Made by a program: the position numbers and the translations under genes | Sequence record: LC918680.1 | Length of the DNA stretch: 46,345 bases | Direction: 5' to 3' (one strand) | Origin: a phage | Notes under the pieces: generated by a model | What the model saw: the letters and a program-made list of their open reading frames with translations, nothing else | Database searches by the model: none | Told to the model about the DNA's origin: nothing | Shown: in pieces, positions 6,107 to 46,276 of the stretch | How positions within the stretch are numbered: position 1 is the stretch's first letter | How the letters are laid out: each line of letters starts with the position of its first letter

Positions 6107-6112
6107 TGAATC

Positions 6113-6136: not shown

Positions 6137-6199
6137 CGTCTGTACCAAATGGAACTGTTGGGTTATAATCACTAAATCAGATAAACAAAGGAGCAAGTA

Positions 6200-6445: not shown

Positions 6446-6451
6446 CCAAAT

Positions 6452-6474
6452 GGGCGCTTAGGCGTCCGTTTTTG
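6452..6474 (+). terminator. intrinsic terminator candidate
   Basis: GGGCGC-TTAG-GCGTCC (one G-U) + GTTTTT. Confidence 0.45.
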
Positions 6475-6486
6475 TATGGAGGTTTT

Positions 6487-8078: not shown

Positions 8079-8089
8079 AAGGAAAATAT

Positions 8090-8749: not shown

Positions 8750-8756
8750 ATATAAA

Positions 8757-8778
8757 CCCTCTTCGGAGGGTTTTTTAT
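8757..8778 (+). terminator. intrinsic terminator after major tail gene
   Basis: CCCTC-TTCG-GAGGG + TTTTTT. Confidence 0.75.
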
Positions 8779-8781
8779 TGA

Positions 8782-8796
8782 TAGCACTTTTTGTTA
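8782..8796 (+). promoter_or_regulatory. boundary motif copy 2
   Basis: TAGCACTTTTTGTTA after major-tail terminator. Confidence 0.5.
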
Positions 8797-8857
8797 AAGA
8801 CCAAATCGCGGATTGCTGTATAGTTCATTCATCGAAACGAAATGAGATATTAGTGAA

Positions 8858-9106
8858 ATGAACAACGTTAAAAACATCATCAAACTTGCTGCTGCTCTTG
8901 GTGCTTTCTACCTGGCAATTCAGATTGTTAACCCAACTGGTGGCGAAACCGCAAACTCTGATGCAATAAAGTATGAACATGAATTTAATAGTGCATATTC
9001 TCATTGTGAAAAAGTAGCTGGCGATAAGACAAATCAGATTCTGCATTATGGTCGCGAGGTGTGCACCGAAGTTGCTCACAACATTGTAAAAAACGAATCA
9101 AAGTAA
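8858..9106 (+). CDS. small secreted/membrane protein (moron in tail module)
   Basis: N-terminal hydrophobic segment IIKLAAALGAFYLAIQIV; AT-rich; preceded by terminator, boundary motif and conserved CATCGAAACGAAA leader. Confidence 0.55.
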   Translation: MNNVKNIIKLAAALGAFYLAIQIVNPTGGETANSDAIKYEHEFNSAYSHCEKVAGDKTNQILHYGREVCTEVAHNIVKNESK

Positions 9107-9141
9107 TATAATCATTCAACACAAACAAAGGAGATAACGAG

Positions 9142-9456
9142 ATGGCAAAATTTAAACTTTCACTTAAGGCGCTGCCTGACTTTAAACTTCCGGTTAAGTT
9201 TCAGTTAGCGAATGGTGAAGATGCAGAGGTGGTACTAACAGTTAAGCACAAGAAATCATCTGAACTTCAGGAGATTCTTAATCGTGAAAACTTCAGCACT
9301 AAAGAATTGATTAACGAAATCTGCTCTGACTGGGATTTAGAAGAACCATTTACCGATGAGAACGTAGATGAGTTTGCCAACCTTTTCCCTGGTGCCGTTC
9401 CATCACTGATGGATAGCTACATGAAAGCGCTAGCAGGTCAGCGAGTAAAAAACTAA
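9142..9456 (+). CDS. tail assembly chaperone (lambda G-like)
   Basis: 104-aa acidic ORF directly upstream of tape measure gene; ends in slippery A_AAA_AAC. Confidence 0.6.
   Translation: MAKFKLSLKALPDFKLPVKFQLANGEDAEVVLTVKHKKSSELQEILNRENFSTKELINEICSDWDLEEPFTDENVDEFANLFPGAVPSLMDSYMKALAGQRVKN
9447..9453 (+). other. -1 programmed ribosomal frameshift slippery heptamer A_AAA_AAC
   Basis: X_XXY_YYZ heptamer in G frame 3 nt before stop; -1 frame open into T-like ORF. Confidence 0.55.
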
Positions 9457-9770
9457 AACGCGCAGTATACTTACAATACCAGTCACCGCCAACGGATGCT
9501 GAACTCGAAGCTATCGGAATGAAACGTTCCGATTATGAAGGTGAGGAGCCTGAAGAGTTATACTTCGATGAAACAATGATGCAAAGCTGGGATGTGTACT
9601 GTGCCATGTCAACTCAATGGCGAGTAGGGGCTTGCGGTGCCACAGGCCTTGATTATAATTGCCTTCCATTCTTATTCAAAGTCTATAAAATAGATGATGA
9701 CGAAATGGTACTTAACGACATCAGAATACTTGAGGCTAAAGCCTTAGATATGATGAACGCCAAGAAATAG
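9447..9770 (+). CDS. tail assembly chaperone frameshift extension (lambda T-like; expressed as G-T fusion by -1 frameshift)
   Basis: Frame -1 relative to G is open from the slippery heptamer 9447-9453 through 9770 with no stop. Confidence 0.5.
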   Translation, partial: KKLKRAVYLQYQSPPTDAELEAIGMKRSDYEGEEPEELYFDETMMQSWDVYCAMSTQWRVGACGATGLDYNCLPFLFKVYKIDDDEMVLNDIRILEAKALDMMNAKK

Positions 9771-9795
9771 CCATCCTTCGGGGTGGCTTTTTTAT
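9770..9795 (+). terminator. intrinsic terminator/attenuator between G-T and tape measure gene
   Basis: GCCATCC-TTCG-GGGTGGC + TTTTTT. Confidence 0.65.
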
Positions 9796-9807
9796 TATGG
9801 AGACAAC

Positions 9808-12789: not shown

Positions 12790-12820
12790 TTAACGGGGCT
12801 TCGGCCCCTAAGGATTTTAA

Positions 12821-13171
12821 ATGGCATTGCAAACATTTAACTGGTGCTTGAACGTTCTCAACGGTGGATCATTATTTAGTAACAAGAACAACGTTAGAAT
12901 TGTATCCTTTGGCAACGGCTTTGAACAAAGGGGTACTGGAGGATACAGGACAAACAAAAGGACGTATACGGTTAGCTACGTTGGTCGTGAGTGGGAGGCA
13001 GTAATGAACTTCTGCTTTGATCACATTGTAAAACCTTTCGCATGGACTACGCCACAGGGTGAATTAAAGCTGTTTGTTATTCAGCAGGATAGTATCAGCG
13101 TCACTCCTAGCACAAAAGAAGTCCAGACTGTTAGCATGCAATTTACTGAAGTTTTTACTTCAATGGGTTAA
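12821..13171 (+). CDS. minor tail protein (lambda M-like)
   Basis: 116-aa ORF directly after tape measure gene. Confidence 0.6.
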   Translation: MALQTFNWCLNVLNGGSLFSNKNNVRIVSFGNGFEQRGTGGYRTNKRTYTVSYVGREWEAVMNFCFDHIVKPFAWTTPQGELKLFVIQQDSISVTPSTKEVQTVSMQFTEVFTSMG

Positions 13172-13175
13172 ACTA

Positions 13176-13199
13176 AGGCCCATAGAGGGCCTTTTTTAT
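13176..13199 (+). terminator. intrinsic terminator candidate
   Basis: AGGCCC-ATAGA-GGGCCT + TTTTTT. Confidence 0.65.
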
Positions 13200-13209
13200 T
13201 GGAGAGAAT

Positions 13210-13965
13210 ATGGCAAGTTTAAAGTTTGAAAACCAGCTTCAATCACTTTTTCCTGGTGAAGTGGTTACGCTTATTGAGGTTGACGGAAGTAAATTCGGGG
13301 CAAGGGTTTACAGGTTTCATGGGGAGAACATCTCATACACGCCTGAAGAAATCATGCAAGCCCAAGCGTCCGGCCAGCCACTACCATCCAAGACAATCAC
13401 TTTCCGTGGAGAAGAGTATGGAGCCAGGCCTTTCGGTATTAGCGGCATTAATCTTACTTCTGACGGCAAAGCAAACAAGCTCACGCTAATTTTATCAAAC
13501 GTAGACCAGGCTGTTTCCGCGCTAATACGTCAGTATAATGGCATGGTTCAGGCTAAGGTGACAATTTGGGTTACTATCAGGGATAATATCAATGAGGACG
13601 GCAGCATTGCAGATGGTGATTATCGTAAGATGGTTTACTTTATTGAGCGTCCAAAGCAGGTTGACTACAAAACTGCCTCTTTTGAGTTATCTAGCCCAAT
13701 TGATATGGATGGCATTTATATTCCAGCGAGGTTAGTCCAGTCAGTATGCTACTTCGCTTCCCGTGGCTGGTATCGTAGTGGTAACGGTTGTGATTATGCC
13801 GGGAATCGATACTTTGATAAAGACAATAATCCGGTTGATGACCCTGGCCTGGATTTCTGCGCCGGAACTGTTGATGCATGTAAGTTAAGGTTTGGTGAAA
13901 ACAACCAGCTATCATTTGGAGGTTGTGCCTCTGCTAGCTTGCAAGCCAAGAATAACCAGAACTAA
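13210..13965 (+). CDS. minor tail protein (lambda L-like)
   Basis: 251-aa ORF with C-terminal Cys cluster resembling the gpL Fe-S cysteines. Confidence 0.65.
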   Translation: MASLKFENQLQSLFPGEVVTLIEVDGSKFGARVYRFHGENISYTPEEIMQAQASGQPLPSKTITFRGEEYGARPFGISGINLTSDGKANKLTLILSNVDQAVSALIRQYNGMVQAKVTIWVTIRDNINEDGSIADGDYRKMVYFIERPKQVDYKTASFELSSPIDMDGIYIPARLVQSVCYFASRGWYRSGNGCDYAGNRYFDKDNNPVDDPGLDFCAGTVDACKLRFGENNQLSFGGCASASLQAKNNQN

Positions 13966-13975
13966 GGAGTCTAAA

Positions 13976-14734
13976 ATGCTTACACCAAAAGTTAAACTAG
14001 AAATCATGCGCCACGCAAAAGAGGATTACCCAAACGAGTGCTGCGGCGTAGTCACCCAAAAAGGCATGGCACAAAAATACCATAGAATCACCAACGCATC
14101 GAAAGACCCTGAAAATGAGTTCATTCTTGACGCCAGTGAGTACATGAATATTGTCTTTAATCTTGGCTACAGCGAGTCAATTGTTTACGTAGCTCACTCA
14201 CACACTGGAGATGGTGCAACTACAAGGCCTAGCCCGGCAGACATATGCAGTTGCAATGAGTGCGAGATTCCATATGTCATCGTTAGTTACCCGGAAGGAG
14301 ATCTGCGAATCCTTGAACCAGTTGATATGCCGCTAGCAGGAAGACCGTGGGGTTTGGGTAGCTTCGATTGCTGGGGATTGATAATGTCATTCCACGCAAA
14401 ACACGGCGTTAAACTGGCTGATTACCGCGTTAATTATCCATGGTGGAACAAGGAGTATGGCGAAAATATCTATGACGAGAATTGGATTAAGGAAGGATTT
14501 GAGCTAGTAGAAACTGATGATATTCCAGTTGGCTCCATGATTATGATGCAGATTCAAAGTGAGACGACAAACCACGCAGGAATCTACATTGGAGATAACA
14601 AGTTCCTGCATCACCTTTACGGAAAGATGAGTAAAGTAGATACTTATAGCGATTACTGGCGCGAGCGCACGGTTCGAATCGTTCGCCACAAAGATTTACC
14701 AGAAGGAGCAAATTACAATGCAGAGACTGATTAA
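13976..14734 (+). CDS. tail assembly protein (lambda K-like; MPN/JAB + NlpC/P60 domains)
   Basis: JAMM-like HSHTGDGATTRPSPAD and NlpC/P60 Cys (FDCWGL) and His (HAGIYIG); ATG 13976 with AAGGAG upstream (track start 13892 is upstream alternative). Confidence 0.75.
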   Translation: MLTPKVKLEIMRHAKEDYPNECCGVVTQKGMAQKYHRITNASKDPENEFILDASEYMNIVFNLGYSESIVYVAHSHTGDGATTRPSPADICSCNECEIPYVIVSYPEGDLRILEPVDMPLAGRPWGLGSFDCWGLIMSFHAKHGVKLADYRVNYPWWNKEYGENIYDENWIKEGFELVETDDIPVGSMIMMQIQSETTNHAGIYIGDNKFLHHLYGKMSKVDTYSDYWRERTVRIVRHKDLPEGANYNAETD

Positions 14735-15293
14735 GGTTAAGCTTGGCTTGTCACTTGGCAGAAGGTACGGGAAAGTCCATGAGTTGTGCGTGGAGTCTGT
14801 ACCGGAAGCACTTCGAGCATTATCGGTAAACATTCCAGCATTTAAAGAGTTCATGCAAAGCCATGCTGGACAAAGGACTAGGTTCGCAATATTTGCTGAC
14901 GGGAAGAACCTTAATGAACATCGTATCAAGGATTTTAAGGTAGTTGGTGAGATTCGTATTATGCCAATACCTCAAGGAAGAAAAAGCGGAGGGTTATTCC
15001 AGACAGTAATAGGTGCGGCGCTCATTGGTGCTAGCTTCTTCCTTACTGGTGGTATTGCAACCGCTGTTCTTGGTGCTGGTATCTCACTAGCTGCTGGCGG
15101 TGTAGCTCAGTTACTTTCCCCACAAGCAACTGGATTAAAGACGCAGGAGTCTGCGCAAAACAGGGCTTCATACGCATTCGGGTCGGCTGTTAACACTGTA
15201 GCTGCTGGATACCCAATATGTTTGCCATACGGTTATCGAAGTGTTGGCGGCTCTGTATTTAGTGCTGGGAGTTACTCAGAAGATATCGCTTAA
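14718..15293 (+). CDS. tail assembly protein (lambda I-like)
   Basis: 191-aa ORF with Gly/Ala-rich hydrophobic C-terminal half, between K-like and J-like genes; strong terminator downstream. Confidence 0.6.
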   Translation: MQRLIKVKLGLSLGRRYGKVHELCVESVPEALRALSVNIPAFKEFMQSHAGQRTRFAIFADGKNLNEHRIKDFKVVGEIRIMPIPQGRKSGGLFQTVIGAALIGASFFLTGGIATAVLGAGISLAAGGVAQLLSPQATGLKTQESAQNRASYAFGSAVNTVAAGYPICLPYGYRSVGGSVFSAGSYSEDIA

Positions 15294-15298
15294 ATTAA

Positions 15299-15324
15299 GA
15301 CCCGCCTAGTGCGGGTTTTTTATT
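15299..15324 (+). terminator. intrinsic terminator before J-like gene
   Basis: ACCCGC-CTAGT-GCGGGT + TTTTTT. Confidence 0.7.
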
Positions 15325-15333
15325 TAGTGTAGA

Positions 15334-18300
15334 ATGGCACAAATGGTCAAAACAAATGCGGAGCTATGTGATATGGCGGAAGAAATTAAGATTTATGGAA
15401 GTAAGGGCGGACAGCCAAAGCAGCACCAACCTGTAGAGCAGCCTGATAACCTGATATCCGTAAACAAGGTTAAGGTTTTGCTAGCTGTTTCTGATGGTGA
15501 GGTTGATAGCTCATTCTCCCTAAAGGACCTTTACCTTGCTGACGTTCCTGTACAGAACCAGAATGGCACATACAACTACGAGGGTGTAACGGCAGAGTTT
15601 CGCCCTGGCACACAGAGTCAGGATTACATTGCCGGGCTAGAGGGTGCTAGCTCGGAAGTGCAAGTGAACAGGGAGATTAAAAACTCAACTCCTTACATCA
15701 TTGCTGTTAATAACACCCAGCTATCAGCGATTAGGGTTAAGCTGTTTTGGCCTCGTCTGATTAATCAGGAAAGTAACGGAGATCTTAACGGTACCACTTG
15801 CGAGTATGCGATTGACCTGTCCGTTGATGGCGCTACATACACTGAGTACACGCGCGGAGTAGTTAATGGCAAGACAACTAGCGGGTACGACAGAAGTATC
15901 AGGGTTAACCTTCCTGCTGAGTTCTCGAGTGCGTTGGTGAGGGTTCGTAAGATCACGGCAGATTCAGAAAGTTCGACGCTGGTTAACGACATGCAAATTA
16001 CGACCTATCAGGAAGTAATTGATGCTAAATTCCGCTACCCACTTACAGCTCTGGTTTACGTTGAGTTCAGTTCTGACCTCTTCCCTAACGGAATCCCGAC
16101 GATTTCAATCAAGAAGAAGTGGAAGTTGATTCGCGTTCCAACTAACTACAACCCAGAGACAAGGACTTACAGCGGAACCTGGAACGGCACCTTTAAGATG
16201 GCGTATTCCAATAACCCGGCGTGGGTTCTTTACGACTTGGTGACGAATCAGCGTTACGGACTTGACCAGCGAGAGCTTGGCATTACTATTGATAAGTGGG
16301 GTCTGTATGAGGCGGCGCAATTCTGTGACCAGATGGTTCCAGATGGTAAGGGTGGAGTTGAGCCGCGCTACCTGTGTGATGTTGTCATTCAGCAGAAAGT
16401 TGAAGCATATCAGGTAATCCGTGATATTTGCTCTATCTTCCGTGGGCTGACATTCTATGACGGCGAGCAGATAGGGATTGTTGTCGATAAGCCGCGTCAA
16501 CCATCGTACGTATTCACCAATGACAACGTTGTTGATGGATTGTTCAACCGTACATTTGGTAGCGATAAGTCACTTTACACGGTTGCCAACGTTCAGTTTG
16601 ATGACGTTGAAAACTCATACCAACAGGATGTTGAGCCAGTATTCGAGTTAGAGGCAACAAGGCGTTTTGGTTACAACCCGGTCGACCTTACAGCTATTGG
16701 ATGTACTCGCAGGAGTGAGGCAAACCGCCGCGGGCGCTGGTTATTAAAGACGAACATTCGCAGCGAGACTATTAGTTTCACTACTGGTCTGGAAGGTATG
16801 ATTCCAATGATTGGTGAGGTTATTGCAGTTAATGACCAGGCATGGTCTAGCAACTACACCCTTAACCTTTCTGGTCGTATCGAGTCAGTAAGTGGGTTGC
16901 AAGTTTTTGTGCCATTTAAGATTGATGCTACTGCTGGCGACAGGATTCTAATAAACAAGCCTGATGGAATGCCAGAGTACAGGACCATTGCATCTGTATC
17001 TGAAGATGGTATGACGCTTCAACTTAATACAGCGTTTAGCTTTACTCCTCAGCCTGACACAGTATTTGCGATTGATAAGGAAAATCTTGCTCTTCAGCAA
17101 TATGTTGTGACCGGTATTCAAAAAGCAGACAGCGATGGAGATGATGCGTTTGGTTACACGATTACCGCAGTTGAGTACGACCCGAACAAATACGACGAGA
17201 TTGATTACGGCGTAAACATTCAGGACAGGCCAACTTCAATCGTGGAGCCAGATACATTACTGGCACCCGAGAATGTTCAGGTTAGCAGTTACAGTAAGGT
17301 TGTTCAGGGTTTATCAGTTGAGACAATGGTAATCACGTGGGACAAGGTTCAGTACGCGAAAACCTACACGGTCCAGTGGCGCAAGGAGAACGGAAACTGG
17401 ATTAACGTGCCGCGCACAGCAAGCACAGAGGTTGATATTGAAGGTATCTATGCCGGAATTTACCAGGTTCGCGTAAGGGCCGTTTCTGATACTGAAAACG
17501 TATCCGCATGGTCTGACATTGTTTCAGTAAGCCTCACAGGCAAGATTGGGACCCCTTCTTCACCTACAGTAATCACCGCTTCAGATGATGAAATATTCGG
17601 CATTAGGGTTAAGTGGGGATTTCCTGAAAACTCAGCCGATACGTCATACACTGAATTGCAGCAAGTAGCCGACAATGGTGATGGTACTTATACACCAGAG
17701 AATGCTAGCCTTCTGACTCTGGTGCCTTACCCGAGTTACGAGTACTGGCATACTACACTTCCTGCTGGAAAGGTCATCTGGTACAGGGCGCGACTGATTG
17801 ACAAGATTGGTAACGTCTCACCATGGACTGATTTTGTAAGGGGTATGGCAAGCGATGATGTGTCGTCAATCATTGGTGATATTAAGGTTGATATAGAAAA
17901 CTCAGATGGGTTCAAGTATCTCCAGCAGAATGCCATTGAGTCAAACGGAGCTATTCAGGCGCAAGCGGAATCAATAATTGAGAACGCCCTGGCTAATGAT
18001 GGTGACGTGCGTAGAATGACGAAGGAAAACGGCAAGAGGAAGGCCGAATTTGTTCAGGCTGTGAATCTTATCGCCGATGAAGAAAGGGCTCGCGTAGAGG
18101 CTCTGACGCAGCTTAAGGCGCAGATTGATGATGAGATTGTAGCTTCATTGACAAGGATTGATACGGCGCTAGCGGAAGAGACGCAAGCAAGGACCACTGC
18201 GGACACTGCTTTATCTGCAAGGCTAGGTGATAATGAGGCTGCGTTAAATGAGAAGCTGGACACTTACGTTACTGCCGATTCAATTGGTGCTCAGTACGGG

Positions 18301-18729
18301 ATTAAACTTGGCCTCAAATACAATGGCGTTGAGTACAGTTCTGGCATGAGTATGGAGCTAACTGGTTCTGATGGCAATGTTCGTAGTCAGGTCATCTTTG
18401 ATGCTAACAGGTTCGCAATCAGTAACGGTGTTAGTTCAGGTTCCGGTCAGTGGTCATTGCCTTTCGTAGTTGAGAATAACCAGGTATTCATCCAAAGCGC
18501 GGTAATTCAGGATGGTTCAATTACTAACGCGAAGATTGGTAACTCGATTCAGTCAAACAACTACGTTGCTAACTCGCAGGGCTGGAGTTTAAACAAAGCT
18601 GGGACATTCGAGAATAACGGCTCAACTGCTGGCGAAGGTAAGATGAAGCAGACGAACCAAACAATTTCGGTTGCGGATGCTAATGGAAGGCTTCGTGTTC
18701 AGATTGGTCGTTTAACTGGCACATACTAA
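15334..18729 (+). CDS. tail tip/central fibre host-specificity protein (lambda J-like)
   Basis: 1131-aa ORF at end of tail module, larger than any other non-tape-measure ORF. Confidence 0.85.
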   Translation: MAQMVKTNAELCDMAEEIKIYGSKGGQPKQHQPVEQPDNLISVNKVKVLLAVSDGEVDSSFSLKDLYLADVPVQNQNGTYNYEGVTAEFRPGTQSQDYIAGLEGASSEVQVNREIKNSTPYIIAVNNTQLSAIRVKLFWPRLINQESNGDLNGTTCEYAIDLSVDGATYTEYTRGVVNGKTTSGYDRSIRVNLPAEFSSALVRVRKITADSESSTLVNDMQITTYQEVIDAKFRYPLTALVYVEFSSDLFPNGIPTISIKKKWKLIRVPTNYNPETRTYSGTWNGTFKMAYSNNPAWVLYDLVTNQRYGLDQRELGITIDKWGLYEAAQFCDQMVPDGKGGVEPRYLCDVVIQQKVEAYQVIRDICSIFRGLTFYDGEQIGIVVDKPRQPSYVFTNDNVVDGLFNRTFGSDKSLYTVANVQFDDVENSYQQDVEPVFELEATRRFGYNPVDLTAIGCTRRSEANRRGRWLLKTNIRSETISFTTGLEGMIPMIGEVIAVNDQAWSSNYTLNLSGRIESVSGLQVFVPFKIDATAGDRILINKPDGMPEYRTIASVSEDGMTLQLNTAFSFTPQPDTVFAIDKENLALQQYVVTGIQKADSDGDDAFGYTITAVEYDPNKYDEIDYGVNIQDRPTSIVEPDTLLAPENVQVSSYSKVVQGLSVETMVITWDKVQYAKTYTVQWRKENGNWINVPRTASTEVDIEGIYAGIYQVRVRAVSDTENVSAWSDIVSVSLTGKIGTPSSPTVITASDDEIFGIRVKWGFPENSADTSYTELQQVADNGDGTYTPENASLLTLVPYPSYEYWHTTLPAGKVIWYRARLIDKIGNVSPWTDFVRGMASDDVSSIIGDIKVDIENSDGFKYLQQNAIESNGAIQAQAESIIENALANDGDVRRMTKENGKRKAEFVQAVNLIADEERARVEALTQLKAQIDDEIVASLTRIDTALAEETQARTTADTALSARLGDNEAALNEKLDTYVTADSIGAQYGIKLGLKYNGVEYSSGMSMELTGSDGNVRSQVIFDANRFAISNGVSSGSGQWSLPFVVENNQVFIQSAVIQDGSITNAKIGNSIQSNNYVANSQGWSLNKAGTFENNGSTAGEGKMKQTNQTISVADANGRLRVQIGRLTGTY

Positions 18730-18739
18730 CTGATAAAAT

Positions 18740-18760
18740 AGGCAAATGGATTTGCCTTTA
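18740..18760 (+). terminator. hairpin/weak terminator after J-like gene
   Basis: AGGCAAA-TGGA-TTTGCCT then TTTATAAAT. Confidence 0.4.
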
Positions 18761-18776
18761 TAAATAGGAGTAAATT

Positions 18777-19091
18777 ATGGCTGAGTATGGAATTGCAACA
18801 TATGACGCGAACGGTAATTACAATAACTACGGGATTAGACCTGTAACAGTTGTTGGTAATATCTCGCTTGCTAATGGACAGACATCTGGTAGCTACAGCT
18901 TTACGATACCAGCAGGTACTAAGGTTAATTTCGTCGTCGCGACTCAATCTGACTCGCTAATTAGCTACACCAATAAGCGTTTAATATCCGCATCTGGAAA
19001 TACGATAAATATATCTGCAACAACAGGATATGGTAACGGCGTTACATCCACTGGTGCTTCTAATGTTATTGTCTTTCTGGAGAATGCGTAA
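18777..19091 (+). CDS. hypothetical Ser/Thr/Asn/Gly-rich protein (putative fibre-associated)
   Basis: 104-aa ORF immediately after J-like gene; composition resembles the next ORF. Confidence 0.45.
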   Translation: MAEYGIATYDANGNYNNYGIRPVTVVGNISLANGQTSGSYSFTIPAGTKVNFVVATQSDSLISYTNKRLISASGNTINISATTGYGNGVTSTGASNVIVFLENA

Positions 19092-19759
19092 TGAGTTATG
19101 GAGCGTACATAAATGTAAATGGTAACCCGTTCATAACCCAGAACTCAACGCCGATGGCGCTTTATAGAAAAGTTACAATTAACTCAACGAAATCAAATAA
19201 TTTCAACTCAGCTAGCGCCTCAGTAAACATACCAGGAGGAACGTCACTGATAGGTTTTGGGAGGACCAGTGGGTATGCAGCAATAAGTAGCTCAATATCT
19301 GGGAGTACAGTTTCGGTAAGCGCTAGCAACTACAAAGTTACAAATTTCACTCTTGAAGCTTATTTCTTTGCTATATTCCCACAAGAACTACCAGCGTGGG
19401 GTATGGCAATATGGGATGATTCAGGTAAGTTAATACTAACAAATGAAACAAAAGTAATGACTGACTTGATAACGATTGGTACGCCAGGAGCTTCTAGTGG
19501 AGGTGTGTTTATAGATACAACAATACAAGGTAGGAAGCTTGCTGTTTGCCCTGGGGTACTTGGTGCGGTTTTGCTTGCAGGCCCTCCTCAGCAGGGGCAG
19601 CCCACAATTCAGCCAGTCACGGCATACACTGCATGTCATGACCAAGATGGAGGAACAAGGTTTAGGTCAGCAACTTCAAGTAGCGCATCCGGCGGTAGCC
19701 TTGGAGCTTCAAACCTTGGAACAATAATGACCGCCATTGACGTTTCAATATATGACTAA
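19091..19759 (+). CDS. hypothetical Ser/Thr/Gly-rich protein (putative fibre-associated)
   Basis: 222-aa ORF start-overlapping upstream stop (TAATG); followed by strong terminator. Confidence 0.45.
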   Translation: MSYGAYINVNGNPFITQNSTPMALYRKVTINSTKSNNFNSASASVNIPGGTSLIGFGRTSGYAAISSSISGSTVSVSASNYKVTNFTLEAYFFAIFPQELPAWGMAIWDDSGKLILTNETKVMTDLITIGTPGASSGGVFIDTTIQGRKLAVCPGVLGAVLLAGPPQQGQPTIQPVTAYTACHDQDGGTRFRSATSSSASGGSLGASNLGTIMTAIDVSIYD

Positions 19760-19782
19760 GCCCCTTTCGGGGCTTTTTTATT
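19759..19782 (+). terminator. intrinsic terminator at end of + strand structural block
   Basis: AGCCCC-TTTC-GGGGCT + TTTTTT. Confidence 0.8.
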
Positions 19783-20002
19783 AACCACCACAGTCGTGAT
19801 CTTTAAAGTTAGACTCCGAAACGTAGTGGAAAGAGAATGGGTATCCAGCACGTAACAGTAGTTCGTCACCTCTTTGCTGAGTACCAAAAACATAAACCGA
19901 GTACTCTGACCCAGCAGATTCATAAATTGCGGTACAAGTGCGCTCAGGCATTGAAGAGCATCCAGTCAGTAATAACGCTGCGCAGATAATAAACTTTTTC
20001 AT
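19781..20002 (-). CDS. small lipoprotein, Cor-like superinfection-exclusion candidate
   Basis: MKKFIICAALLLTGC signal peptide with lipobox; 73 aa; convergent with tail module. Confidence 0.55.
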   Translation of the reverse strand: MKKFIICAALLLTGCSSMPERTCTAIYESAGSEYSVYVFGTQQRGDELLLRAGYPFSFHYVSESNFKDHDCGG

Positions 20003-23960: not shown

Positions 23961-23984
23961 AAAGCCCCTTTCGGGGCTTTTTTA
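23961..23984. terminator. bidirectional intrinsic terminator between convergent ssb and tail-fibre genes
   Basis: A-run + GCCCC-TTTC-GGGGC + T-run. Confidence 0.8.
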
Positions 23985-26516
23985 TGCAAGAGAAACTCTT
24001 GAGTTTGCAAATATCAAGGCGTCCCTTTGATTATCAAATTCTACAACAAAATAATCAGCAAGGCTTAATACCATACCAGTTAATCCATTGAGGTTAATGT
24101 TAAGGTTTGCAACGCCAGAAACCGAAGCCTGACCAACTCCAAATGTATGAACCCACTTACCACGCTCAGTAAACACACTGCCTAATGATGCGCTACCAAA
24201 AATGTTTATAATACCATCAGCACCGCCTTGAATCCTGTTTGCAGAAATACCCCAAACATACCATTTTCCGGAAGTTATATTAAAGCGACCATTTATCAAT
24301 TCGTACTGAGCCGCACCATCTAATTCGTAGTATCCAGATGATTGCGAGTGTATACCCCTTGTATCAGAACCTTCCCTTGACGACCCTGTTCCACCAAAGT
24401 CGTTTCCACCAGTACCAAAAGGCCTCCTGACTAAAACAATTCCGGAATCGGGGTTAAAAACTCGACCTTTAGTAACATATCCTCTAACAGATAGGTTTGA
24501 AGTGCCAGTTATCTTGGCTGTCTGTGATACCAGCGACTCAACTATAACGTTTGATGTTGAAGATCCATTCAGGTATGCATCCTTAGCAAAAATAATACTG
24601 TTCGAATCAAGAGAGAAACTTTGGTGCCCATCAGCGTTATCAAACCTGCACCCATAAGTTACAAGGTTTGAATTTGATAACTCAATGTTATTAATATAAG
24701 AATGCTCAGCAAAGAAAACGGACGTATCGATGAGCTTCAAAACCCTTGGGAGTTCAGCTCCCTCACCTACGTTAATTGCTCCCCCAGTTGCTATCGCTTC
24801 AAACCATACGTTAGACAATCCGCAAGGTGATGTTGGGCAATCTCCAGGTTTATTCTTTAACCTTATACCGCCGCCAGCAGAGGCCTCCATTATTGAATCC
24901 CTAATCCACCACCCACCAATTCCTCCAGCAACAGGGTTCGTTGCGCTACTTGTGCTTGTCGCATCTAGCATTACTGAATATTGAGAGATTGTATCTGAGT
25001 GGTATCCGTATAAAGTGTCCGCTCCTATATGCATTTCGTCATGAGCTTTGGCTCGATACCCGTAATTCGCATTTCTAATACTTACGTTTCTGTAGGTATT
25101 TCCAATGTTGCCAGCATTTTTCCTTATACCAACATCCAGGTTATTGAAGTAAAGCCTATCCAATACAACCCTTCCAGCATAAGGGTCATCCGGGAATTGA
25201 AAGCCGTTATTACCTTGTATTGCAGTACCTGTAAACTGCAAATCCGATAAATGCTTTTGCCTCCAGTGCGGAACCGATAGCGTTGAGGTGAGTCCGGTTT
25301 CAAAAGGTTTAACACTTATTACGGTATTATATCCAGAGCCTGATATGTTCCTGCCAGCAAAGGAGTAGTTATTACTCTCATAAGTTCCCGGGCTTATAAC
25401 TACCGACCCGCCATCGCCAGCGGCTTCTATTGCTGAAGATATTGAGCCGCTATAGCTTGATGTGCTTTTTGAATCTGTATTTAAAATTGATGACACCTCA
25501 CCCTTTGAGTAAACATCAAGGTTGGTTCTTGCCACGGACTTATCTGCAATGTCTGAAAGATTCAATGATTTTTGAAACGTCTCGGATTTTGAGTAAACAT
25601 CAAGCAACCCCCTAACCCTTGACGCGCTTGATCCACCAGTTGCAGCATTACCGCCAGGCAAGCTTAGTACTTCCCTTACATAAAAAACCCTAGATCCAGT
25701 CTCACCAGAAATTGTGACATCTGCAATCCTAAAATTTGAGTCTGACCCAGTAGACGGAGATAACCTTAATACATTAGCCGAATTAACACCCCTAGATGCA
25801 ATAACATCAATACAAATAGGAGTTGTTGAAACCGGAAACATTGAACTAATTTCTTTTGGGGTGTTTAACATATTCCTAAGTGTGCACTGATAACGACCTC
25901 CGGAATAAAATTGCATTGTTTGCCAATCTAAAGAGGTAAGTAATGGCGTTGTCGTGCTACCTATTCCGTGATTAGCAAAGTAAGCAACAGCCGCTGTATT
26001 TCCAGCTGCATTTATTGCCTCAACCGTCCTGTTATATGAATTTTGTGCGTTAGTGCTTGCACCAACTGCGGTCGCTGCACTTTCAGCAGCAGCAATCTGA
26101 CTAGCTAACGCCTCCGCAGCTCCGGTAGTTGACTGAGTTGCCAGTTGTTCAAAACGAGGCCAATCAAAAGTATCTTGACCAATAAATTGCAGTAGACTTT
26201 CAATAGAAGTCTCTTTTGACTGGTAGTAACGCAATGTTTCCGCAACATCCTGTGCCAACCCCTGAACAGTAATTCCATCATGAGCAAGAATTGCGTAACC
26301 AGTACCAGCGGGAACAGTTTCAGAACTTGGATTATAAACATTAACCTGAGTATCGCTGATGATTTCAGAGATGGTGTAAATTTTCAGAGGGCTGGTTTTG
26401 AAAATGATAGTAGCACCTACACGAATCAGTGTAAGAGGTGCTTTCCATGTAGTACCTACGCCAGTAACCTCGCCATTTGAGGCTAGTGATGCTGTTCCTA
26501 AGTCATAAATTGCCAT
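23982..26516 (-). CDS. tail fibre/tailspike protein
   Basis: 844-aa ORF, Gly/Ser/Asn/Thr-rich with repetitive beta-rich character; own promoter-like TGGTAGAAT upstream. Confidence 0.7.
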   Translation of the reverse strand: MAIYDLGTASLASNGEVTGVGTTWKAPLTLIRVGATIIFKTSPLKIYTISEIISDTQVNVYNPSSETVPAGTGYAILAHDGITVQGLAQDVAETLRYYQSKETSIESLLQFIGQDTFDWPRFEQLATQSTTGAAEALASQIAAAESAATAVGASTNAQNSYNRTVEAINAAGNTAAVAYFANHGIGSTTTPLLTSLDWQTMQFYSGGRYQCTLRNMLNTPKEISSMFPVSTTPICIDVIASRGVNSANVLRLSPSTGSDSNFRIADVTISGETGSRVFYVREVLSLPGGNAATGGSSASRVRGLLDVYSKSETFQKSLNLSDIADKSVARTNLDVYSKGEVSSILNTDSKSTSSYSGSISSAIEAAGDGGSVVISPGTYESNNYSFAGRNISGSGYNTVISVKPFETGLTSTLSVPHWRQKHLSDLQFTGTAIQGNNGFQFPDDPYAGRVVLDRLYFNNLDVGIRKNAGNIGNTYRNVSIRNANYGYRAKAHDEMHIGADTLYGYHSDTISQYSVMLDATSTSSATNPVAGGIGGWWIRDSIMEASAGGGIRLKNKPGDCPTSPCGLSNVWFEAIATGGAINVGEGAELPRVLKLIDTSVFFAEHSYINNIELSNSNLVTYGCRFDNADGHQSFSLDSNSIIFAKDAYLNGSSTSNVIVESLVSQTAKITGTSNLSVRGYVTKGRVFNPDSGIVLVRRPFGTGGNDFGGTGSSREGSDTRGIHSQSSGYYELDGAAQYELINGRFNITSGKWYVWGISANRIQGGADGIINIFGSASLGSVFTERGKWVHTFGVGQASVSGVANLNINLNGLTGMVLSLADYFVVEFDNQRDALIFANSRVSLA

Positions 26517-44450: not shown

Positions 44451-44752
44451 CATTATCATTGATTTAGTGTTAACTTTTATTGCTGTTGGTCTTGCTATTG
44501 CAACGGGTGTAGGTATGCTTTTGCTTGTAATGAGCTGGTGATAAGAGCGGGAGCTCCATGTATGAATGGGAATGAGAATAACCAAAAACATCGATACGTT
44601 TACGCGTTCACGTCAATCATTAACGATTTTGACATTAAAGCGCTAAATGCTGGGTATTATGAGTCAACAAAACAGGGTCTATCAATCGGTGAGAGTTGCT
44701 AATTTTACGAGTGCAAAGATTGTGGCAAGATGCTTATCACTGAGGAGTTTTG

Positions 44753-44950
44753 ATGAATAAAATTATTAAGAAAGGCGATGCTATCAAGTGCACAAAGGCG
44801 GCATCGGATGACTTCATGGATGGATGCGATTACCAGGTCGAAAATGTATCGAAGACTGGCCACGTATTCTGCTACAGCGATAATGGCGAATTGGTGAGCA
44901 TTGACTACCCGTATGACCAGAATTATGGGAAATTCGAAAGAGTAAGTTGA
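44753..44950 (+). CDS. hypothetical protein
   Basis: 65-aa ORF, SD GAGGAG upstream. Confidence 0.45.
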   Translation: MNKIIKKGDAIKCTKAASDDFMDGCDYQVENVSKTGHVFCYSDNGELVSIDYPYDQNYGKFERVS

Positions 44951-44975
44951 CACATCTAACCCTGACTGGTACATT
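44947..44975 (+). promoter_or_regulatory. candidate sigma70-like promoter upstream of tRNA-Arg
   Basis: TTGACA (44947-44952), 17-bp spacer, TACATT (44970-44975). Confidence 0.35.
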
Positions 44976-45138
44976 AACAACTGTAGACAGACGAGGCCAC
45001 CAAGTGGCAACGGCGCACGGAGCGCAACACAAAGTCCATAGCTCACTAAGCAGCGTATATGGCGAAATCGGTCGAGAAACTCGACGCTGGAAGCGTAACC
45101 AGCAATCCTTCAATAGCGCAATCGCTACTCAAGGATTT

Positions 45139-45214
45139 GTTCTGCTGGCGTAACAGGATAACGCAAAGACCTCCTAAGTCTTAGTTACTGGTTCGAGTCC
45201 AGTGCGGAACACCA
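45139..45214 (+). tRNA. tRNA-Arg (anticodon CCU, reads AGG)
   Basis: Manual cloverleaf: 7-bp acceptor stem (one G-U), 4-bp D-stem with GG in loop, 5-bp anticodon stem with loop CTCCTAA, T-arm ACTGG/TTCGAGT/CCAGT, discriminator A, encoded CCA. Confidence 0.8.
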
Positions 45215-45245
45215 AATTAAGAAACCAATAATCCTGGGGGATTAA

Positions 45246-45458
45246 ATGAAAAAAGTAACAATCATCGTAAAAGATATTGAAAGCGGCACTTCCCAAAAAT
45301 TCAACGCAACACTTGACCGTGAACATAAATGCTTAAAGGGTGTGATTGGCGGGGTTTCAGTTAGCGCGGATATTAAAGGTTATCTCGAGCTTGAAAGAGA
45401 AACTCAAAACTATAGCAATCAGAGCGGGAAGATAAAAAATGCAGCTCTGGGATGTTAA
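45246..45458 (+). CDS. hypothetical protein
   Basis: 70-aa ORF with SD GGGGGA upstream. Confidence 0.45.
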   Translation: MKKVTIIVKDIESGTSQKFNATLDREHKCLKGVIGGVSVSADIKGYLELERETQNYSNQSGKIKNAALGC

Positions 45459-45627
45459 GCTTTCAATCCGATTAATGGGTCGTAGTTGCAAAAGTTGCAC
45501 TCAAGAATTTATCGCGTCGGTTACTGCTAAGTCCTCAGAGGAAGCAGTAGCGAAAGTTAAGGTAATGTCTGGTGCCGACCAGGATTGCCACAAATTCATA
45601 GTAGCTTACGTTCGTGAGCGAAAGTAA
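45439..45627 (+). CDS. hypothetical protein (Cys-containing)
   Basis: 62-aa ORF overlapping upstream gene. Confidence 0.4.
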   Translation: MQLWDVKLSIRLMGRSCKSCTQEFIASVTAKSSEEAVAKVKVMSGADQDCHKFIVAYVRERK

Positions 45628-45680
45628 AAGAAGTTCTACTCTCTGTTTGTTTCATATCTCTCGTTGTTGTTCGATACTTT

Positions 45681-45705
45681 GCCCTCTTCTTGAGGGCTTT
45701 TTTTC
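45681..45705 (+). terminator. intrinsic terminator before terS
   Basis: GCCCTC-TTCTT-GAGGGC + TTTTTTT. Confidence 0.75.
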
Positions 45706-45715
45706 GTTTGCTATA

Positions 45716-45724
45716 TGATATAAT
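45716..45724 (+). promoter_or_regulatory. candidate extended -10 promoter element TGATATAAT upstream of terS
   Basis: Perfect TGnTATAAT 27 nt upstream of terS ATG, right after a terminator; no good -35. Confidence 0.4.
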
Positions 45725-45751
45725 GCATCTCTAAACAAAGGAGGTAACAAA

Positions 45752-46276
45752 ATGAAAGGCGAAAACTTCACCAGCCATGCGCAAGAAAAGATTCGCTCTG
45801 GCAACTTCAAGGCTATGTACAACAAGAAATATTCCGACATTACAACTCTAGCCAAAAACAGAATCATGACCCCAGAACAGTTATTCAACTTGGCTGTGAA
45901 ATACTTCTCATGGGCAGAGGATAATGCAATCAAAGCGGCTGAGACGGCCAGCTTCCAGGGCGTGGTCACTGAGAGCCTTGTGCATAAGCCACGAGTATTC
46001 ACGTTAACAGGGTTCTGCCTTTACTGCGGCGTTACTTCAAGTGCCATTGAGAAATGGAGGAAGTCTGCGGGTTATGACGATGTGATGACATTCATTGATT
46101 CCGTGATTAGAGAGCAGAAGTATCAGCTGGCAGCGTCTGGCATTGTTAACCCTGGCATGATTTCCAAGGAGCTTGGAATCGACAAACCGCAGGAGATCAC
46201 TATAAGCAATAACTCTTCTGCTAACGACGTCGAAACGATGAAGGAAGCTCTGGAGTCTGTGATTAGTAAGCTGTAA
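45752..46276 (+). CDS. terS: terminase small subunit
   Basis: 174-aa ORF after terminator and extended -10, SD AAGGAGG; position immediately upstream of terL if the genome is circularly joined. Confidence 0.6.
   Translation: MKGENFTSHAQEKIRSGNFKAMYNKKYSDITTLAKNRIMTPEQLFNLAVKYFSWAEDNAIKAAETASFQGVVTESLVHKPRVFTLTGFCLYCGVTSSAIEKWRKSAGYDDVMTFIDSVIREQKYQLAASGIVNPGMISKELGIDKPQEITISNNSSANDVETMKEALESVISKL

What the first reader, a model, noticed from the sequence alone, without database searches (positions are those of the whole stretch)
45139..45214. Phage-encoded tRNA-Arg(CCU) for the rare AGG codon, with an upstream sigma70-like promoter
A manually folded 76-nt cloverleaf has anticodon CCT, T-loop TTCGAGT and an encoded CCA. 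TTGACA-17-TACATT sits ~160 nt upstream (44947-44975), overlapping the stop of the previous gene. AGG is a rare codon in enterobacteria, so this may support translation of AGG-containing phage genes.
Basis: seen in the sequence. Interest (0 to 1): 0.5.

Follow-up and report, generated by a model that had tools for sequence, protein, structure and literature searches.

The report
Phage tRNA-Arg for rare AGG codon
This T1-like E. coli phage carries a genuine arginine tRNA that reads AGG, a codon the host rarely uses but which is the phage's commonest arginine codon; the gene is already known in this phage family, so the finding is correct but ordinary.

Summary
ARAGORN and Rfam both call a 76-nt tRNA-Arg(CCU) at 45139-45214 (+), with an encoded CCA, and it is the only tRNA in the window. 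TTGACA-17-TACATT, with a TG extended -10, lies at 44947-44975.

The window is a virulent Drexlerviridae (Braunvirinae) coliphage. The same tRNA, 97-100% identical, sits at the same place in many relatives. It was described in 2012 for phage Rogue1 as "recognizing the rare codon AGG".

AGG is 12.7 per 1000 codons (27% of Arg) in the phage and 1.1 per 1000 in an E. coli K-12 sample. Late structural and lysis genes reach 18.4 per 1000.

Relatives whose orthologous tRNA reads UCU prefer AGA. tRNA-less relatives use few AGG. At conserved Arg sites the synonymous changes run in the direction each anticodon predicts.

The promoter is conserved in position in 55 loci. Not previously described, as far as I found: the ~156-nt leader between promoter and tRNA is a structured, covarying, non-coding RNA. 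It persists even in phages without the tRNA, including T1, and the site also hosts other tRNAs.

Verdict: real, functional, already known. The codon/anticodon co-variation and the leader give it modest extra interest.

The parts
44947..44975 (+). Sigma70-type promoter: -35 TTGACA (44947-44952), 17-nt spacer, TG (44967-44968), -10 TACATT (44970-44975). The -35 overlaps the stop codon of the upstream ORF.
   Evidence: Promoter scan, 10/12 with TG. The -35 TTG is nearly invariant and the -10 T-A-N3-T invariant in 15 aligned relatives. The same arrangement occurs in T1 and in 55 loci, 36 of them distinct. No transcription start site has been mapped.
44983..45138 (+). Non-coding structured leader of about 156 nt. 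It starts with GUAGAC (44983-44988, predicted transcript start region).
- H1: GCCAC-CAA-GUGGC, 44996-45008
- H2: GCGC-ACGGA-GCGC, 45013-45025
- H4: 45071-45085
- H5: GCUGG-AAGCGUAA-CCAGC, 45086-45103
- H6: 45104-45137
   Evidence: MFE fold is a row of hairpins, z = -2.8. H1/H2 covariation: 93.2% of cells paired against at most 41.5% when partners are slid, and 0/500 shuffles reach it. H5 occurs as 6 different perfect 5-bp stems. Relatives have stops in all three frames. No Rfam family matches. The leader is present without the tRNA in T1 and in about 40 other loci.
45139..45214 (+). tRNA-Arg(CCU), 76 nt, reading AGG. Acceptor stem 45139-45145 / 45204-45210, anticodon 45173-45175, T-loop 45192-45198, discriminator A 45211, encoded CCA 45212-45214.
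   Evidence: ARAGORN. Rfam 58.9 bits. Cloverleaf as the MFE fold. 10 of 21 pairs show compensatory double changes among 16 orthologues, with 99.7% of cells paired.
45246..45458 (+). Small ORF (70 aa) that starts 32 nt after the tRNA, preceded by GGGGGA. Probably co-transcribed with it.
   Evidence: ORF list. Annotated as a hypothetical protein in AN_ECEAS. No Pfam family. No terminator lies between the tRNA and this ORF.
45439..45627 (+). Second small ORF (62 aa) of the same unit.
   Evidence: ORF list. Its homologue in TR3 is annotated as DUF3667. No Pfam hit here at E <= 0.01.
45681..45705 (+). Intrinsic terminator (GCCCTC-TTCTT-GAGGGC followed by T7) that closes the promoter-leader-tRNA-ORF unit, just upstream of the small terminase gene (45752-46276).
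   Evidence: Terminator scan. T1 has an annotated terminator at the same relative place, before its TerS. TerS identified by Pfam GP3_package.

Best explanation
This is a functional phage-encoded elongator tRNA-Arg(CCU). Host RNA polymerase with sigma70 transcribes it from the conserved promoter at 44947-44975. The transcript is polycistronic: a ~156-nt structured leader, the tRNA, two small ORFs, then a terminator.

Host enzymes would cut out the tRNA: RNase P at the 5' end and endo/exonucleases at the 3' end. No CCA addition is needed because CCA is encoded. Host ArgRS would charge it.

The tRNA then adds to the very small host pool of tRNA-Arg(CCU) (argW). This lets the phage's many AGG codons, mainly in late tail, tape-measure, fibre and lysis genes, be translated without stalling.

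Shown here: the gene, its fold, selection on its structure, the conserved promoter, the AGG-rich codon usage, and the co-variation of codon usage with anticodon.

Inferred, not shown: transcription start, processing, charging, and any effect on translation or fitness.
For: The gene is real and under selection:
- ARAGORN and Rfam agree, 58.9 bits, and the MFE fold is a cloverleaf.
- Among 16 orthologues 99.7% of cells are paired and 10 pairs show compensatory double changes. At most 49% pair when partners are slid.

Features needed for use in E. coli, read from the sequence:
- A in the D-loop GGAUA context (position 20), C35, U36, A73 and encoded CCA. These are the ArgRS identity set as I know it from the literature.
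- The anticodon loop CUCCUAA and A73-CCA are the same as in host argW. Overall identity to argW is only 49/76.

Demand for AGG:
- AGG is 12.7 per 1000 codons, 27% of Arg and the top Arg codon, in window ORFs.
- It is 13.8 per 1000 in the annotated CDS of the closest database relative, AN_ECEAS (99% over the tRNA region, 80-99% elsewhere).
- It is 1.1 per 1000 in 26 E. coli K-12 genes.
- Late structural and lysis genes have 18.4 per 1000 (41% of Arg); other genes have 5.5.

Co-variation across relatives:
- CCU carriers (window, AN_ECEAS, Sf12, TR3): AGG 12.7-13.8 per 1000.
- UCU carriers (Rtp, 12210III): AGA 11.1-11.4 and AGG 7.5-8.4.
- T1, with no tRNA: AGG 5.3.
- Other G/A-ending codon pairs do not shift.

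Conserved Arg sites in orthologous proteins:
- window AGG against AGA in the UCU phages, 28:10 (p = 0.005) and 35:6 (p = 5e-6)
- 9:13 against another CCU phage
- window AGG against CGN in T1, 52:7 (p = 1e-9)

In 31 further loci, CCU carriers have AGG 9.9-14.1 per 1000 and tRNA-less loci 2.3-7.2.

The promoter is conserved in position in 55 loci.

Literature:
- The Rogue1/JK06 tRNA was described as recognizing the rare codon AGG (PMC3496638).
- AGG copy number lowers expression in E. coli and this is tunable by the cognate tRNA (PMC4745014, abstract).
Against: - There is no expression, processing or aminoacylation data for this or any Drexlerviridae tRNA that I could find.
- The codon/anticodon association rests on a handful of lineages and is not phylogenetically corrected. 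Part of the AGG excess could have arrived together with exchanged tail modules rather than by in-situ drift. In protein pairs at least 85% identical the trend has the right sign but is not significant.
- Causality could run the other way, with the tRNA relaxing selection against AGG. The tRNA's function would still be AGG decoding.
- tRNA-less relatives such as T1 grow well on E. coli, so the tRNA is an optimisation, not a necessity.
- The phage also uses AGA at 7.2 per 1000, which a CCU anticodon cannot read.
Confidence: 0.8

Rival explanations
1. Anti-defence spare part. The phage tRNA replaces, or acts as a decoy for, host tRNA-Arg that is cleaved by a tRNA-targeting defence or toxin. AGG decoding capacity as such would be secondary.
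For: - Phage tRNAs are known to counter tRNA nucleases (the PARIS and van den Berg 2023 papers are cited in PMC12916289).
- Retron Eco2 cuts host tRNAs including tRNA-Arg, and does not protect against Drexlerviridae.
- The phage tRNA is only 49/76 identical to argW, with different stems, so a stem-specific nuclease could miss it.
- Relatives encode a polynucleotide kinase, and Rtp has an Stp-like peptide. This hints that the family encounters tRNA-damage defences.
Against: - The anticodon loop is identical to that of host argW, unlike the loop-mutated evasive tRNAs.
- I know of no nuclease specific for tRNA-Arg(CCU).
- A decoy model does not predict that genome-wide AGG against AGA usage tracks the anticodon, nor that AGG is concentrated in late genes.
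- Eco2's lack of activity on Drexlerviridae applies to the BASEL representatives tested and was not linked to their tRNA.
Confidence: 0.1
2. Translational timer. The phage keeps late genes AGG-rich so that their translation waits for accumulation of the early-transcribed phage tRNA. This is a regulatory use of the same decoding activity.
For: AGG is 18.4 per 1000 in late and lysis genes against 5.5 in the others. The holin has 3/3 and the endolysin 6/8 Arg codons as AGG. The tRNA lies in a sigma70 unit upstream of the late operon.
Against: This is a refinement of the main explanation rather than an alternative. The most highly expressed late genes avoid AGG (major capsid 1/12, major tail 2/11 Arg codons). 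That fits simple efficiency selection better than a timer. No timing data exist.
Confidence: 0.07
3. Non-functional relic or passenger, for example a captured fragment, a former attachment site, or a processing signal only.
For: Several database records do not annotate it (AN_ECEAS, IMM-001, JK06, Rtp, DTL). tRNA-less relatives are viable (T1).
Against: There are compensatory changes in all four stems and essentially no broken pairs over 16 orthologues. The Infernal score is high. CCA and the identity nucleotides are intact. No integrase is annotated in the closest relative, and the family is virulent. No similar sequence is found in 5,426 E. coli genomes.
Confidence: 0.03

Closest known systems
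tRNA-Arg(CCU) of Rogue1, JK06, AHP24, AHS24, AKS96, Sf12 and phiEB49 (Drexlerviridae, Rogunavirinae)
   Same: Same gene. It is 92-97% identical over the full 76 nt. It has the same anticodon and the same place: after small early ORFs and a promoter/leader, one or two small ORFs before the small terminase. It was published as an arginyl-tRNA recognizing the rare codon AGG (PMC3496638) and counted in PMC4070988.
   Different: The window phage belongs to a different subfamily (Braunvirinae). Its large terminase is closest (89-90% aa) to phages that carry the UCU form. Its 5' leader is Rtp-like (97.7% over 44 nt), whereas its tRNA is Rogunavirinae-like. The locus therefore looks mosaic; this is an inference.
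Orthologous tRNA-Arg(UCU) of Rtp, JeanPiccard, SU57, DTL, ESCO41, MSK and the Veterinaerplatzvirus phages
   Same: Same locus, same promoter and 5' leader, nearly the same T-arm and 3' acceptor half.
   Different: The anticodon is UCU (reads AGA, and AGG by wobble). The length is 77-78 nt with an argU-like D-arm. The genomes prefer AGA over AGG.
E. coli argW, the host tRNA-Arg(CCU)
   Same: Same anticodon, identical anticodon loop CUCCUAA, A73, encoded CCA, 4-nt variable loop and GGAUA D-loop motif. The decoding role is presumably the same.
   Different: Only 49/76 identical, with different stem sequences. No close copy of the phage tRNA exists in 5,426 E. coli genomes, so it is not a recent capture of argW.
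tRNA sets of large virulent coliphages (T4 with 8 tRNAs including Arg-UCU; T5) and the codon-compensation model of Bailly-Bechet, Vergassola and Rocha 2007
   Same: The principle is the same: a virulent phage supplies tRNAs for codons that are common in the phage and rare in the host. This is from my own knowledge; the 2007 paper is cited in PMC8423285.
   Different: Here a single tRNA sits in a ~46-kb siphovirus, embedded in an mRNA-type unit behind a structured leader rather than in a tRNA cluster.
Rare-codon helper plasmids used for protein expression (pRARE/Rosetta type, carrying argU and argW)
   Same: The same remedy for the same bottleneck: extra tRNA-Arg for AGG/AGA raises expression of AGG-rich genes in E. 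coli. This is from my own knowledge. PMC4745014 shows AGG-dependent and tRNA-dependent tuning of expression.
   Different: Those are engineered constructs that use host tRNA genes.

Membership tests
Bacterial elongator tRNA (Rfam RF00005) | Cloverleaf with 7-bp acceptor stem, D-arm, 5-bp anticodon stem, 7-nt anticodon loop with U33 and a purine at 37, and a 5-bp T-stem with a UUCRANY T-loop | tested here: met
   Rfam 58.9 bits against a gathering score of 29, full-length model match 1-71. ARAGORN call. The MFE fold is the cloverleaf. Loop CUCCUAA and T-loop UUCGAGU read.
Bacterial elongator tRNA (Rfam RF00005) | Base pairs maintained by compensatory change among homologues | tested here: met
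   16 orthologues: 99.7% of cells paired, 10 of 21 pairs with double changes, 0/500 shuffles reach it, slid controls at most 49%.
tRNA-Arg accepted by E. coli ArgRS | Identity nucleotides A20, C35, U36 or G36, and A73 or G73 (set recalled from the literature, not checked in a paper here) | tested here: met
   Read from the sequence: D-loop AACAGGAUA places A after G18G19, and C35, U36 and A73 are present. Host argW has the same nucleotides. Actual charging is not testable with these tools.
tRNA-Arg accepted by E. coli ArgRS | The mature tRNA is produced and aminoacylated in infected cells | not testable with these tools
   No expression or charging data were found in the literature searches.
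Drexlerviridae syntenic tRNA-Arg (Rogue1/JK06 type) | Sequence homology and the same genomic position upstream of the small terminase | tested here: met
   114 phage records hold a homologue, 39 of them at 90% identity or more. Synteny is shown.
Codon-compensating phage tRNA | The cognate codon is much more frequent in the phage than in the host | tested here: met
   AGG 12.7 against 1.1 per 1000 codons.
Codon-compensating phage tRNA | Codon usage follows presence and anticodon of the tRNA among relatives | tested here: met
   Caveat: few independent lineages and no phylogenetic correction.
Anti-defence phage tRNA (T5 tRNA-Tyr or PARIS-neutralising tRNA type) | The anticodon stem-loop differs from the host isoacceptor at nuclease determinants | tested here: inconclusive
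   The loop is identical to argW and the stems differ. The determinants of any relevant nuclease are unknown.
Anti-defence phage tRNA (T5 tRNA-Tyr or PARIS-neutralising tRNA type) | A host defence nuclease targets the matching host tRNA, and the phage tRNA rescues infection | not testable with these tools
   The only lead is that Eco2 cuts tRNA-Arg among others and is inactive on Drexlerviridae.
tRNA gene serving as a phage attachment site | Adjacent integrase and temperate lifestyle | tested here: not met
   No integrase among the 70 annotated CDS of the closest relative. The phage tRNA is absent from 5,426 E. coli genomes.
Sigma70 promoter | -35 and -10 hexamers with a 17 +/- 1 nt spacer, conserved in position | tested here: met
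   10/12 plus TG. Conserved in 55 loci.
Sigma70 promoter | Mapped transcription start | not testable with these tools
   No TSS data were found.

The most novel reading that the evidence does not exclude
The tRNA is a cargo inserted into a family-wide cassette: a sigma70 promoter followed by a structured leader RNA. The leader has the 5' sequence GUAGAC..GAG, two covarying hairpins, and a distal hairpin with a CGUAA loop.

This leader exists in Drexlerviridae with or without a tRNA and matches no Rfam family. It could be a new cis-acting regulatory RNA. One possibility is a nut- or put-like signal that lets host polymerase read through the many intrinsic terminators of the late operon that starts just downstream. 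Another is a processing or stability element.

The site behind the leader acts as a landing pad for tRNA genes: Arg-CCU, Arg-UCU, Ser, Trp, Val, and up to six tRNAs in one phage. The anticodon of the resident tRNA then co-evolves with genome-wide codon usage.
Probability: 0.25. Interest if true: 0.6.

Novelty: already known. Interest (0 to 1): 0.3.

Why it matters
As a gene, it only confirms a known accessory of T1-like phages and corrects missing annotation. AN_ECEAS, IMM-001, Rtp, DTL and others lack the feature in their records.

The wider value lies in the family as a natural experiment on the old question of why phages carry tRNAs. Close relatives carry one tRNA with CCU, one with UCU, or none. 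Their AGG/AGA usage shifts accordingly, mostly in late genes.

That makes codon compensation directly testable against anti-defence by anticodon swaps and deletions in a small, tractable, virulent coliphage.

It also bears on phage engineering and therapy. Such phages bring their own solution to an AGG bottleneck, and expressing their tail or lysis genes in E. coli will need argW supplementation.

The conserved structured leader is an unexplored RNA element at the head of the late region.

Tried and rejected
- **Host origin.** blastn of the tRNA against 5,426 E. coli genomes gave no match at E <= 0.01. A direct alignment with argW gave only 49/76 identical. A recent capture of argW, or carriage by a prophage, is rejected.
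- **Rfam on the leader.** At E <= 10 over 44900-45750 only the tRNA and chance-level hits appeared, so no known family fits the leader.
- **Promoter statistics.** The number of promoter-like sites near the tRNA is not above shuffles. I therefore relied on conservation instead.
- **IMG/VR pattern scan for the tRNA.** It returned only 7 loci, mostly copies of GenBank phages, so it added little.
- **RNAalifold on the H5 hairpin.** It predicted nothing, because loop lengths of 8-10 nt put the arms out of register. A direct check showed perfect 5-bp stems in all 10 sequences.
- **Leader as a small protein.** The window has one open frame (ORF 44947-45153, whose TTG start is the -35 itself). All relatives have stops in every frame, so this is rejected.
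- **Recurrence of the leader's 5' motif.** It occurs only once in the window, so it is not a repeated nut-like site in this genome.
- **Ortholog test restricted to proteins at least 85% identical.** The trend has the right sign, but there are too few sites for significance.
- **Literature.** Searches for transcript maps or antitermination in T1-like phages found nothing relevant.
- **Published claim not upheld.** The statement that Rtp and DTL lack the tRNA (PMC8421802) is contradicted by ARAGORN.

Full report
**1. Observation**

ARAGORN finds exactly one tRNA in the 46,345-base window. Rfam's tRNA model (RF00005) matches 45139-45211 over its full length at 58.9 bits, against a gathering score of 29. 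The E-value is 2.6e-10 for the whole window, and this is the only family that reaches threshold.

Read from the sequence:
- acceptor stem GUUCUGC/GCGGAAC, with one U-G pair
- anticodon loop CUCCUAA, 45171-45177, with anticodon at 45173-45175
- 4-nt variable loop
- T-loop UUCGAGU, 45192-45198
- discriminator A, 45211
- encoded CCA, 45212-45214

Folded alone, the 76 nt adopt the cloverleaf as the minimum-free-energy structure.

The promoter scan reports TTGACA, 17 nt, TACATT at 44947-44975. That is 10/12 matches with a TG extended -10. The -35 overlaps the TGA stop of ORF 44750-44950.

**2. What the window is**

The region is 99% identical to Escherichia phage AN_ECEAS and the window is collinear with it. 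AN_ECEAS is a virulent siphovirus of the Drexlerviridae, subfamily Braunvirinae. In AN_ECEAS the tRNA is not annotated.

A search with the 76 nt alone finds homologues in 114 phage records, almost all Escherichia or Shigella Drexlerviridae. Three are at least 99% identical, 21 are 95-99% and 15 are 90-95%. Many are annotated tRNA-Arg.

The position is constant. Small early ORFs come first, then an ORF-free stretch, the tRNA, one or two small ORFs, a terminator, and the small terminase gene. The small terminase at 45752-46273 is confirmed by Pfam GP3_package.

The literature already has this gene. Rogue1 and JK06 share "an arginyl-tRNA ... recognizing the rare codon AGG" (PMC3496638). AHP24, AHS24, AHP42 and AKS96 each have one arginyl-tRNA (PMC4070988).

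**3. Is it a working tRNA?**

Sixteen orthologues keep all 21 cloverleaf pairs:
- 99.7% of cells are paired.
- Ten pairs show compensatory double changes.
- None of 500 column shuffles reaches this.
- Sliding the partners by 1-3 columns drops pairing to 27-49%.

That is selection on tRNA structure, not a relic.

The nucleotides I know to define arginine identity for E. coli ArgRS are A20, C35, U36/G36 and A73/G73. All are present by inspection. CCA is encoded, as in E. coli tRNA genes.

Compared with the host's own tRNA-Arg(CCU), argW, the anticodon loop, A73 and CCA are identical, but overall identity is 49/76. No E. coli genome among 5,426 holds a close copy. It is a phage lineage gene, not a recent capture.

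**4. Does the phage need it?**

In 66 window ORFs of at least 60 aa, AGG occurs 169 times. That is 12.7 per 1000 codons and 27% of Arg codons, and it is the commonest Arg codon. In the 70 annotated CDS of AN_ECEAS it is 13.8 per 1000 and 31% of Arg. In 26 non-prophage E. coli K-12 genes (8,966 codons) AGG is 1.1 per 1000 and 2.6% of Arg. The difference is about eleven-fold.

AGG is concentrated in late genes:

| Gene or class | AGG use |
|---|---|
| Structural and lysis genes | 18.4 per 1000 (41% of Arg) |
| All other genes | 5.5 per 1000 (11% of Arg) |
| Tape measure | 28 of 45 Arg codons |
| Tail fibre (J-like) | 21 of 52 |
| Tail fibre (second) | 24 of 37 |
| Holin | 3 of 3 |
| Endolysin | 6 of 8 |

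An experimental paper shows that AGG copies depress expression in E. coli in proportion to their number, and that this is tunable through the cognate tRNA (PMC4745014).

**5. A sharper test: the anticodon varies among orthologues**

ARAGORN on relatives gives two forms at the same locus:
- CCU in the window, AN_ECEAS, TR3, AKS96, Sf12, phiEB49, AHP24 and Opt-719
- UCU in Rtp, DTL, SU57, 12210III, JeanPiccard, ZL19, OzMSK and ESCO41

The two forms share almost the same T-arm and 3' acceptor half.

Codon usage follows the anticodon:

| Phages | tRNA | AGG per 1000 | AGA per 1000 |
|---|---|---|---|
| window, AN_ECEAS, Sf12, TR3 | CCU | 12.7-13.8 | 6.4-9.6 |
| Rtp, 12210III | UCU | 7.5-8.4 | 11.1-11.4 |
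| T1 | none | 5.3 | 7.0 |

Other G/A-ending codon pairs do not move.

At Arg positions conserved between orthologous proteins, the synonymous differences are directional:
- window AGG opposite AGA in the UCU phages, against the reverse: 28:10 (p = 0.005) and 35:6 (p = 5e-6)
- against the CCU phage Sf12: 9:13, not significant
- window AGG opposite CGN in T1, against the reverse: 52:7 (p = 1e-9)

In 31 further loci centred on the large terminase:
- Four loci with the tRNA in view, plus two known carriers, have AGG 9.9-14.1 per 1000.
- Two UCU carriers have AGG 5.0-5.8 with AGA 8.0-8.2.
- Twenty-two tRNA-less loci have AGG 2.3-7.2.
- The Mann-Whitney test gives p = 5e-6, not corrected for relatedness.

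I found no paper that reports this co-variation.

Caveats:
- There are few independent lineages.
- Gene sets come from a simple ORF caller. It was checked against one annotated genome and gave 13.79 per 1000 in both.
- Exchange of AGG-rich tail modules could contribute. In proteins at least 85% identical the trend has the right sign but too few sites.

**6. Promoter and transcription unit**

Taken alone, the promoter match is not statistically remarkable. In an alignment of 15 relatives, however, the -35 TTG is nearly invariant and the -10 T, A and final T are invariant.

T1 has TTGACC-18-TAGTAT at the same place, again overlapping the upstream stop codon. A pattern search finds TTGNNN, a 15-19-nt spacer (17-18 in every locus listed), T[A/G]NNNT, 4-12 nt (6-7 in nearly all) and then GTAGAC at the syntenic site in 55 loci, 36 of them distinct.

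No other + strand promoter-like site lies between it and the tRNA. No terminator lies before 45681-45697, which is followed by a T-run.

The inferred unit is therefore promoter, 156-nt leader, tRNA, ORF 45246-45458, ORF 45439-45627, terminator. The late operon begins right after it. Release of the tRNA by RNase P and 3' processing is inferred from how E. coli handles tRNAs embedded in mRNAs; this is my own knowledge.

**7.

The 144-242-nt stretch between promoter and tRNA has these properties:
- It is ORF-free in relatives, with stops in all three frames, and has 48-55% G+C against 43.6% for the genome.
- It folds into a row of hairpins, z = -2.8.
- It matches no Rfam family.

Its first ~45 nt are conserved across the family: GUAGAC, three or four bases, GAG, hairpin H1, AAC/G, hairpin H2. 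The stems covary. H1 occurs as GCCAC/GUGGC, CCAUC/GAUGG, CUAGC/GCUAG, GCGC/GCGC, GCGG/CCGC and GCUC/GAGC. Overall 93.2% of cells are paired, against at most 41.5% when partners are slid, and 0/500 shuffles reach this.

A second module is a 5-bp hairpin with an 8-10-nt loop ending in CGUAA. It sits just before the tRNA and appears with six different perfect stems.

T1 and about 40 Klebsiella-type relatives keep the promoter and leader but have no tRNA. There the leader runs straight into the first ORF. The leader is therefore an element in its own right, and the tRNA looks like cargo placed behind it.

Other phages carry different cargo at this site:
- tRNA-Ser(GCU) in L030
- Trp plus Arg in L023/L078
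- Arg plus Val in phiEB49
- six tRNAs in L103

The late operon downstream holds many co-directional intrinsic terminators. There are 28 terminator-like sites against 16.1 +/- 4.0 in shuffles, and T1's record annotates about a dozen between its late genes. A cis-acting read-through signal is one speculative role for the leader. A processing or stability element is another. Nothing here tests either.

**8. Rivals**

- **Anti-defence.** This cannot be excluded. Phage tRNAs do neutralise tRNA nucleases, and Eco2 cuts tRNA-Arg among others. It is not favoured, because the anticodon loop equals the host's, no CCU-specific nuclease is known to me, and the model does not predict the codon co-variation.
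- **Translational timer.** This is a variant of the main explanation. The major capsid and major tail genes avoid AGG (1/12 and 2/11 Arg codons), which fits efficiency selection better.
- **Relic or attachment site.** This is rejected by the structural covariation, the absence of an integrase and the absence of the sequence from E. coli genomes.

**9. Verdict**

The feature is an already known accessory gene of T1-like coliphages.

Modest added interest comes from two things: the anticodon/codon-usage co-variation among close relatives, and the conserved structured leader and tRNA landing site.

Noticed in passing
window 44983-45138; also L021 (T1) 7624-7754, L036 862-930, L013 (Rtp) 442-683: The ORF-free leader between promoter and tRNA is a structured RNA with covarying hairpins: H1, H2 and a distal hairpin with a CGUAA loop. 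It is conserved across Drexlerviridae even where no tRNA is present, and it has no Rfam match. Its function is unknown; it could be a read-through, processing or stability element.
   Followed up: partly
L030 879-966; L078 8633-8787; L006 701-854; L103 8283-8930: The site behind the leader is a hot spot for tRNA genes. One phage has tRNA-Ser(GCU), one has Trp(CCA) plus Arg(CCU), phiEB49 has Arg(CCU) plus Val(AAC), and one 51-kb IMG/VR phage has six tRNAs (Arg-CCU, Ser-UGA, Ser-GCU, Asn, Trp, Met).
   Followed up: partly
L013 (Rtp) 684-760; L012 (DTL) 699-776; L002 (AN_ECEAS) 1938-2013: ARAGORN finds the tRNA-Arg in Rtp and DTL, although their records do not annotate it and a paper (PMC8421802) states it is absent from both. 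In DTL a CDS is annotated across it. AN_ECEAS, IMM-001, JK06, C119, phiKP26, e4/1c, Rao1 and CY1 also lack the annotation.
   Followed up: yes
window 44983-45026 versus 45139-45214: The locus looks mosaic. The 5' leader is 97.7% identical to Rtp, a UCU carrier, over 44 nt. The tRNA is 97% identical to the Rogunavirinae CCU tRNA. The window's large terminase is closest (89-90% aa) to UCU carriers. This suggests the tRNA cassette was exchanged between subfamilies.
   Followed up: partly
window 1-20000, + strand (e.g. 2065, 5028, 6113, 8754, 9769, 13175, 15297, 19758): The late structural operon contains many strong co-directional intrinsic terminators between genes: 28 terminator-like sites against 16.1 +/- 4.0 in shuffles. 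Promoter-like sites are not enriched. T1's record annotates the same pattern. How late transcription passes them is unclear.
   Followed up: no
window 5159-6106 and 8090-8749 versus 9808-12789, 15334-18729, 23982-26516 (-), 35926-36674: AGG use is very uneven. The putative major capsid and major tail genes nearly avoid it (1/12 and 2/11 Arg codons). The tape measure, tail fibres, holin and endolysin use it for 40-100% of Arg codons.
   Followed up: partly
L008 (Opt-719) 791-883: ARAGORN reports an odd 93-nt tRNA-like call with a two-base anticodon ('tRNA-???') directly after the tRNA-Arg. It may be a degenerate or intron-containing tRNA.
   Followed up: no
L018 (Rtp) 1444-1983 and 2432-2524; L016 (AN_ECEAS) 32373-32846; L021 (T1) 4948-5478; L106 (TR3) 28715-29263: Relatives encode a polynucleotide kinase/phosphatase, and Rtp6 is annotated as similar to T4 Stp, the activator of the PrrC anticodon nuclease. 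The family may therefore interact with tRNA-damage defences, which bears on the anti-defence rival.
   Followed up: no
L074 15853 and L075 10626: In two UCU-type relatives a second strong promoter (TTGCGT-16-TATAAT) upstream of a late gene is also followed by GTAGAC at the predicted start. The window has no second copy of that arrangement.
   Followed up: partly
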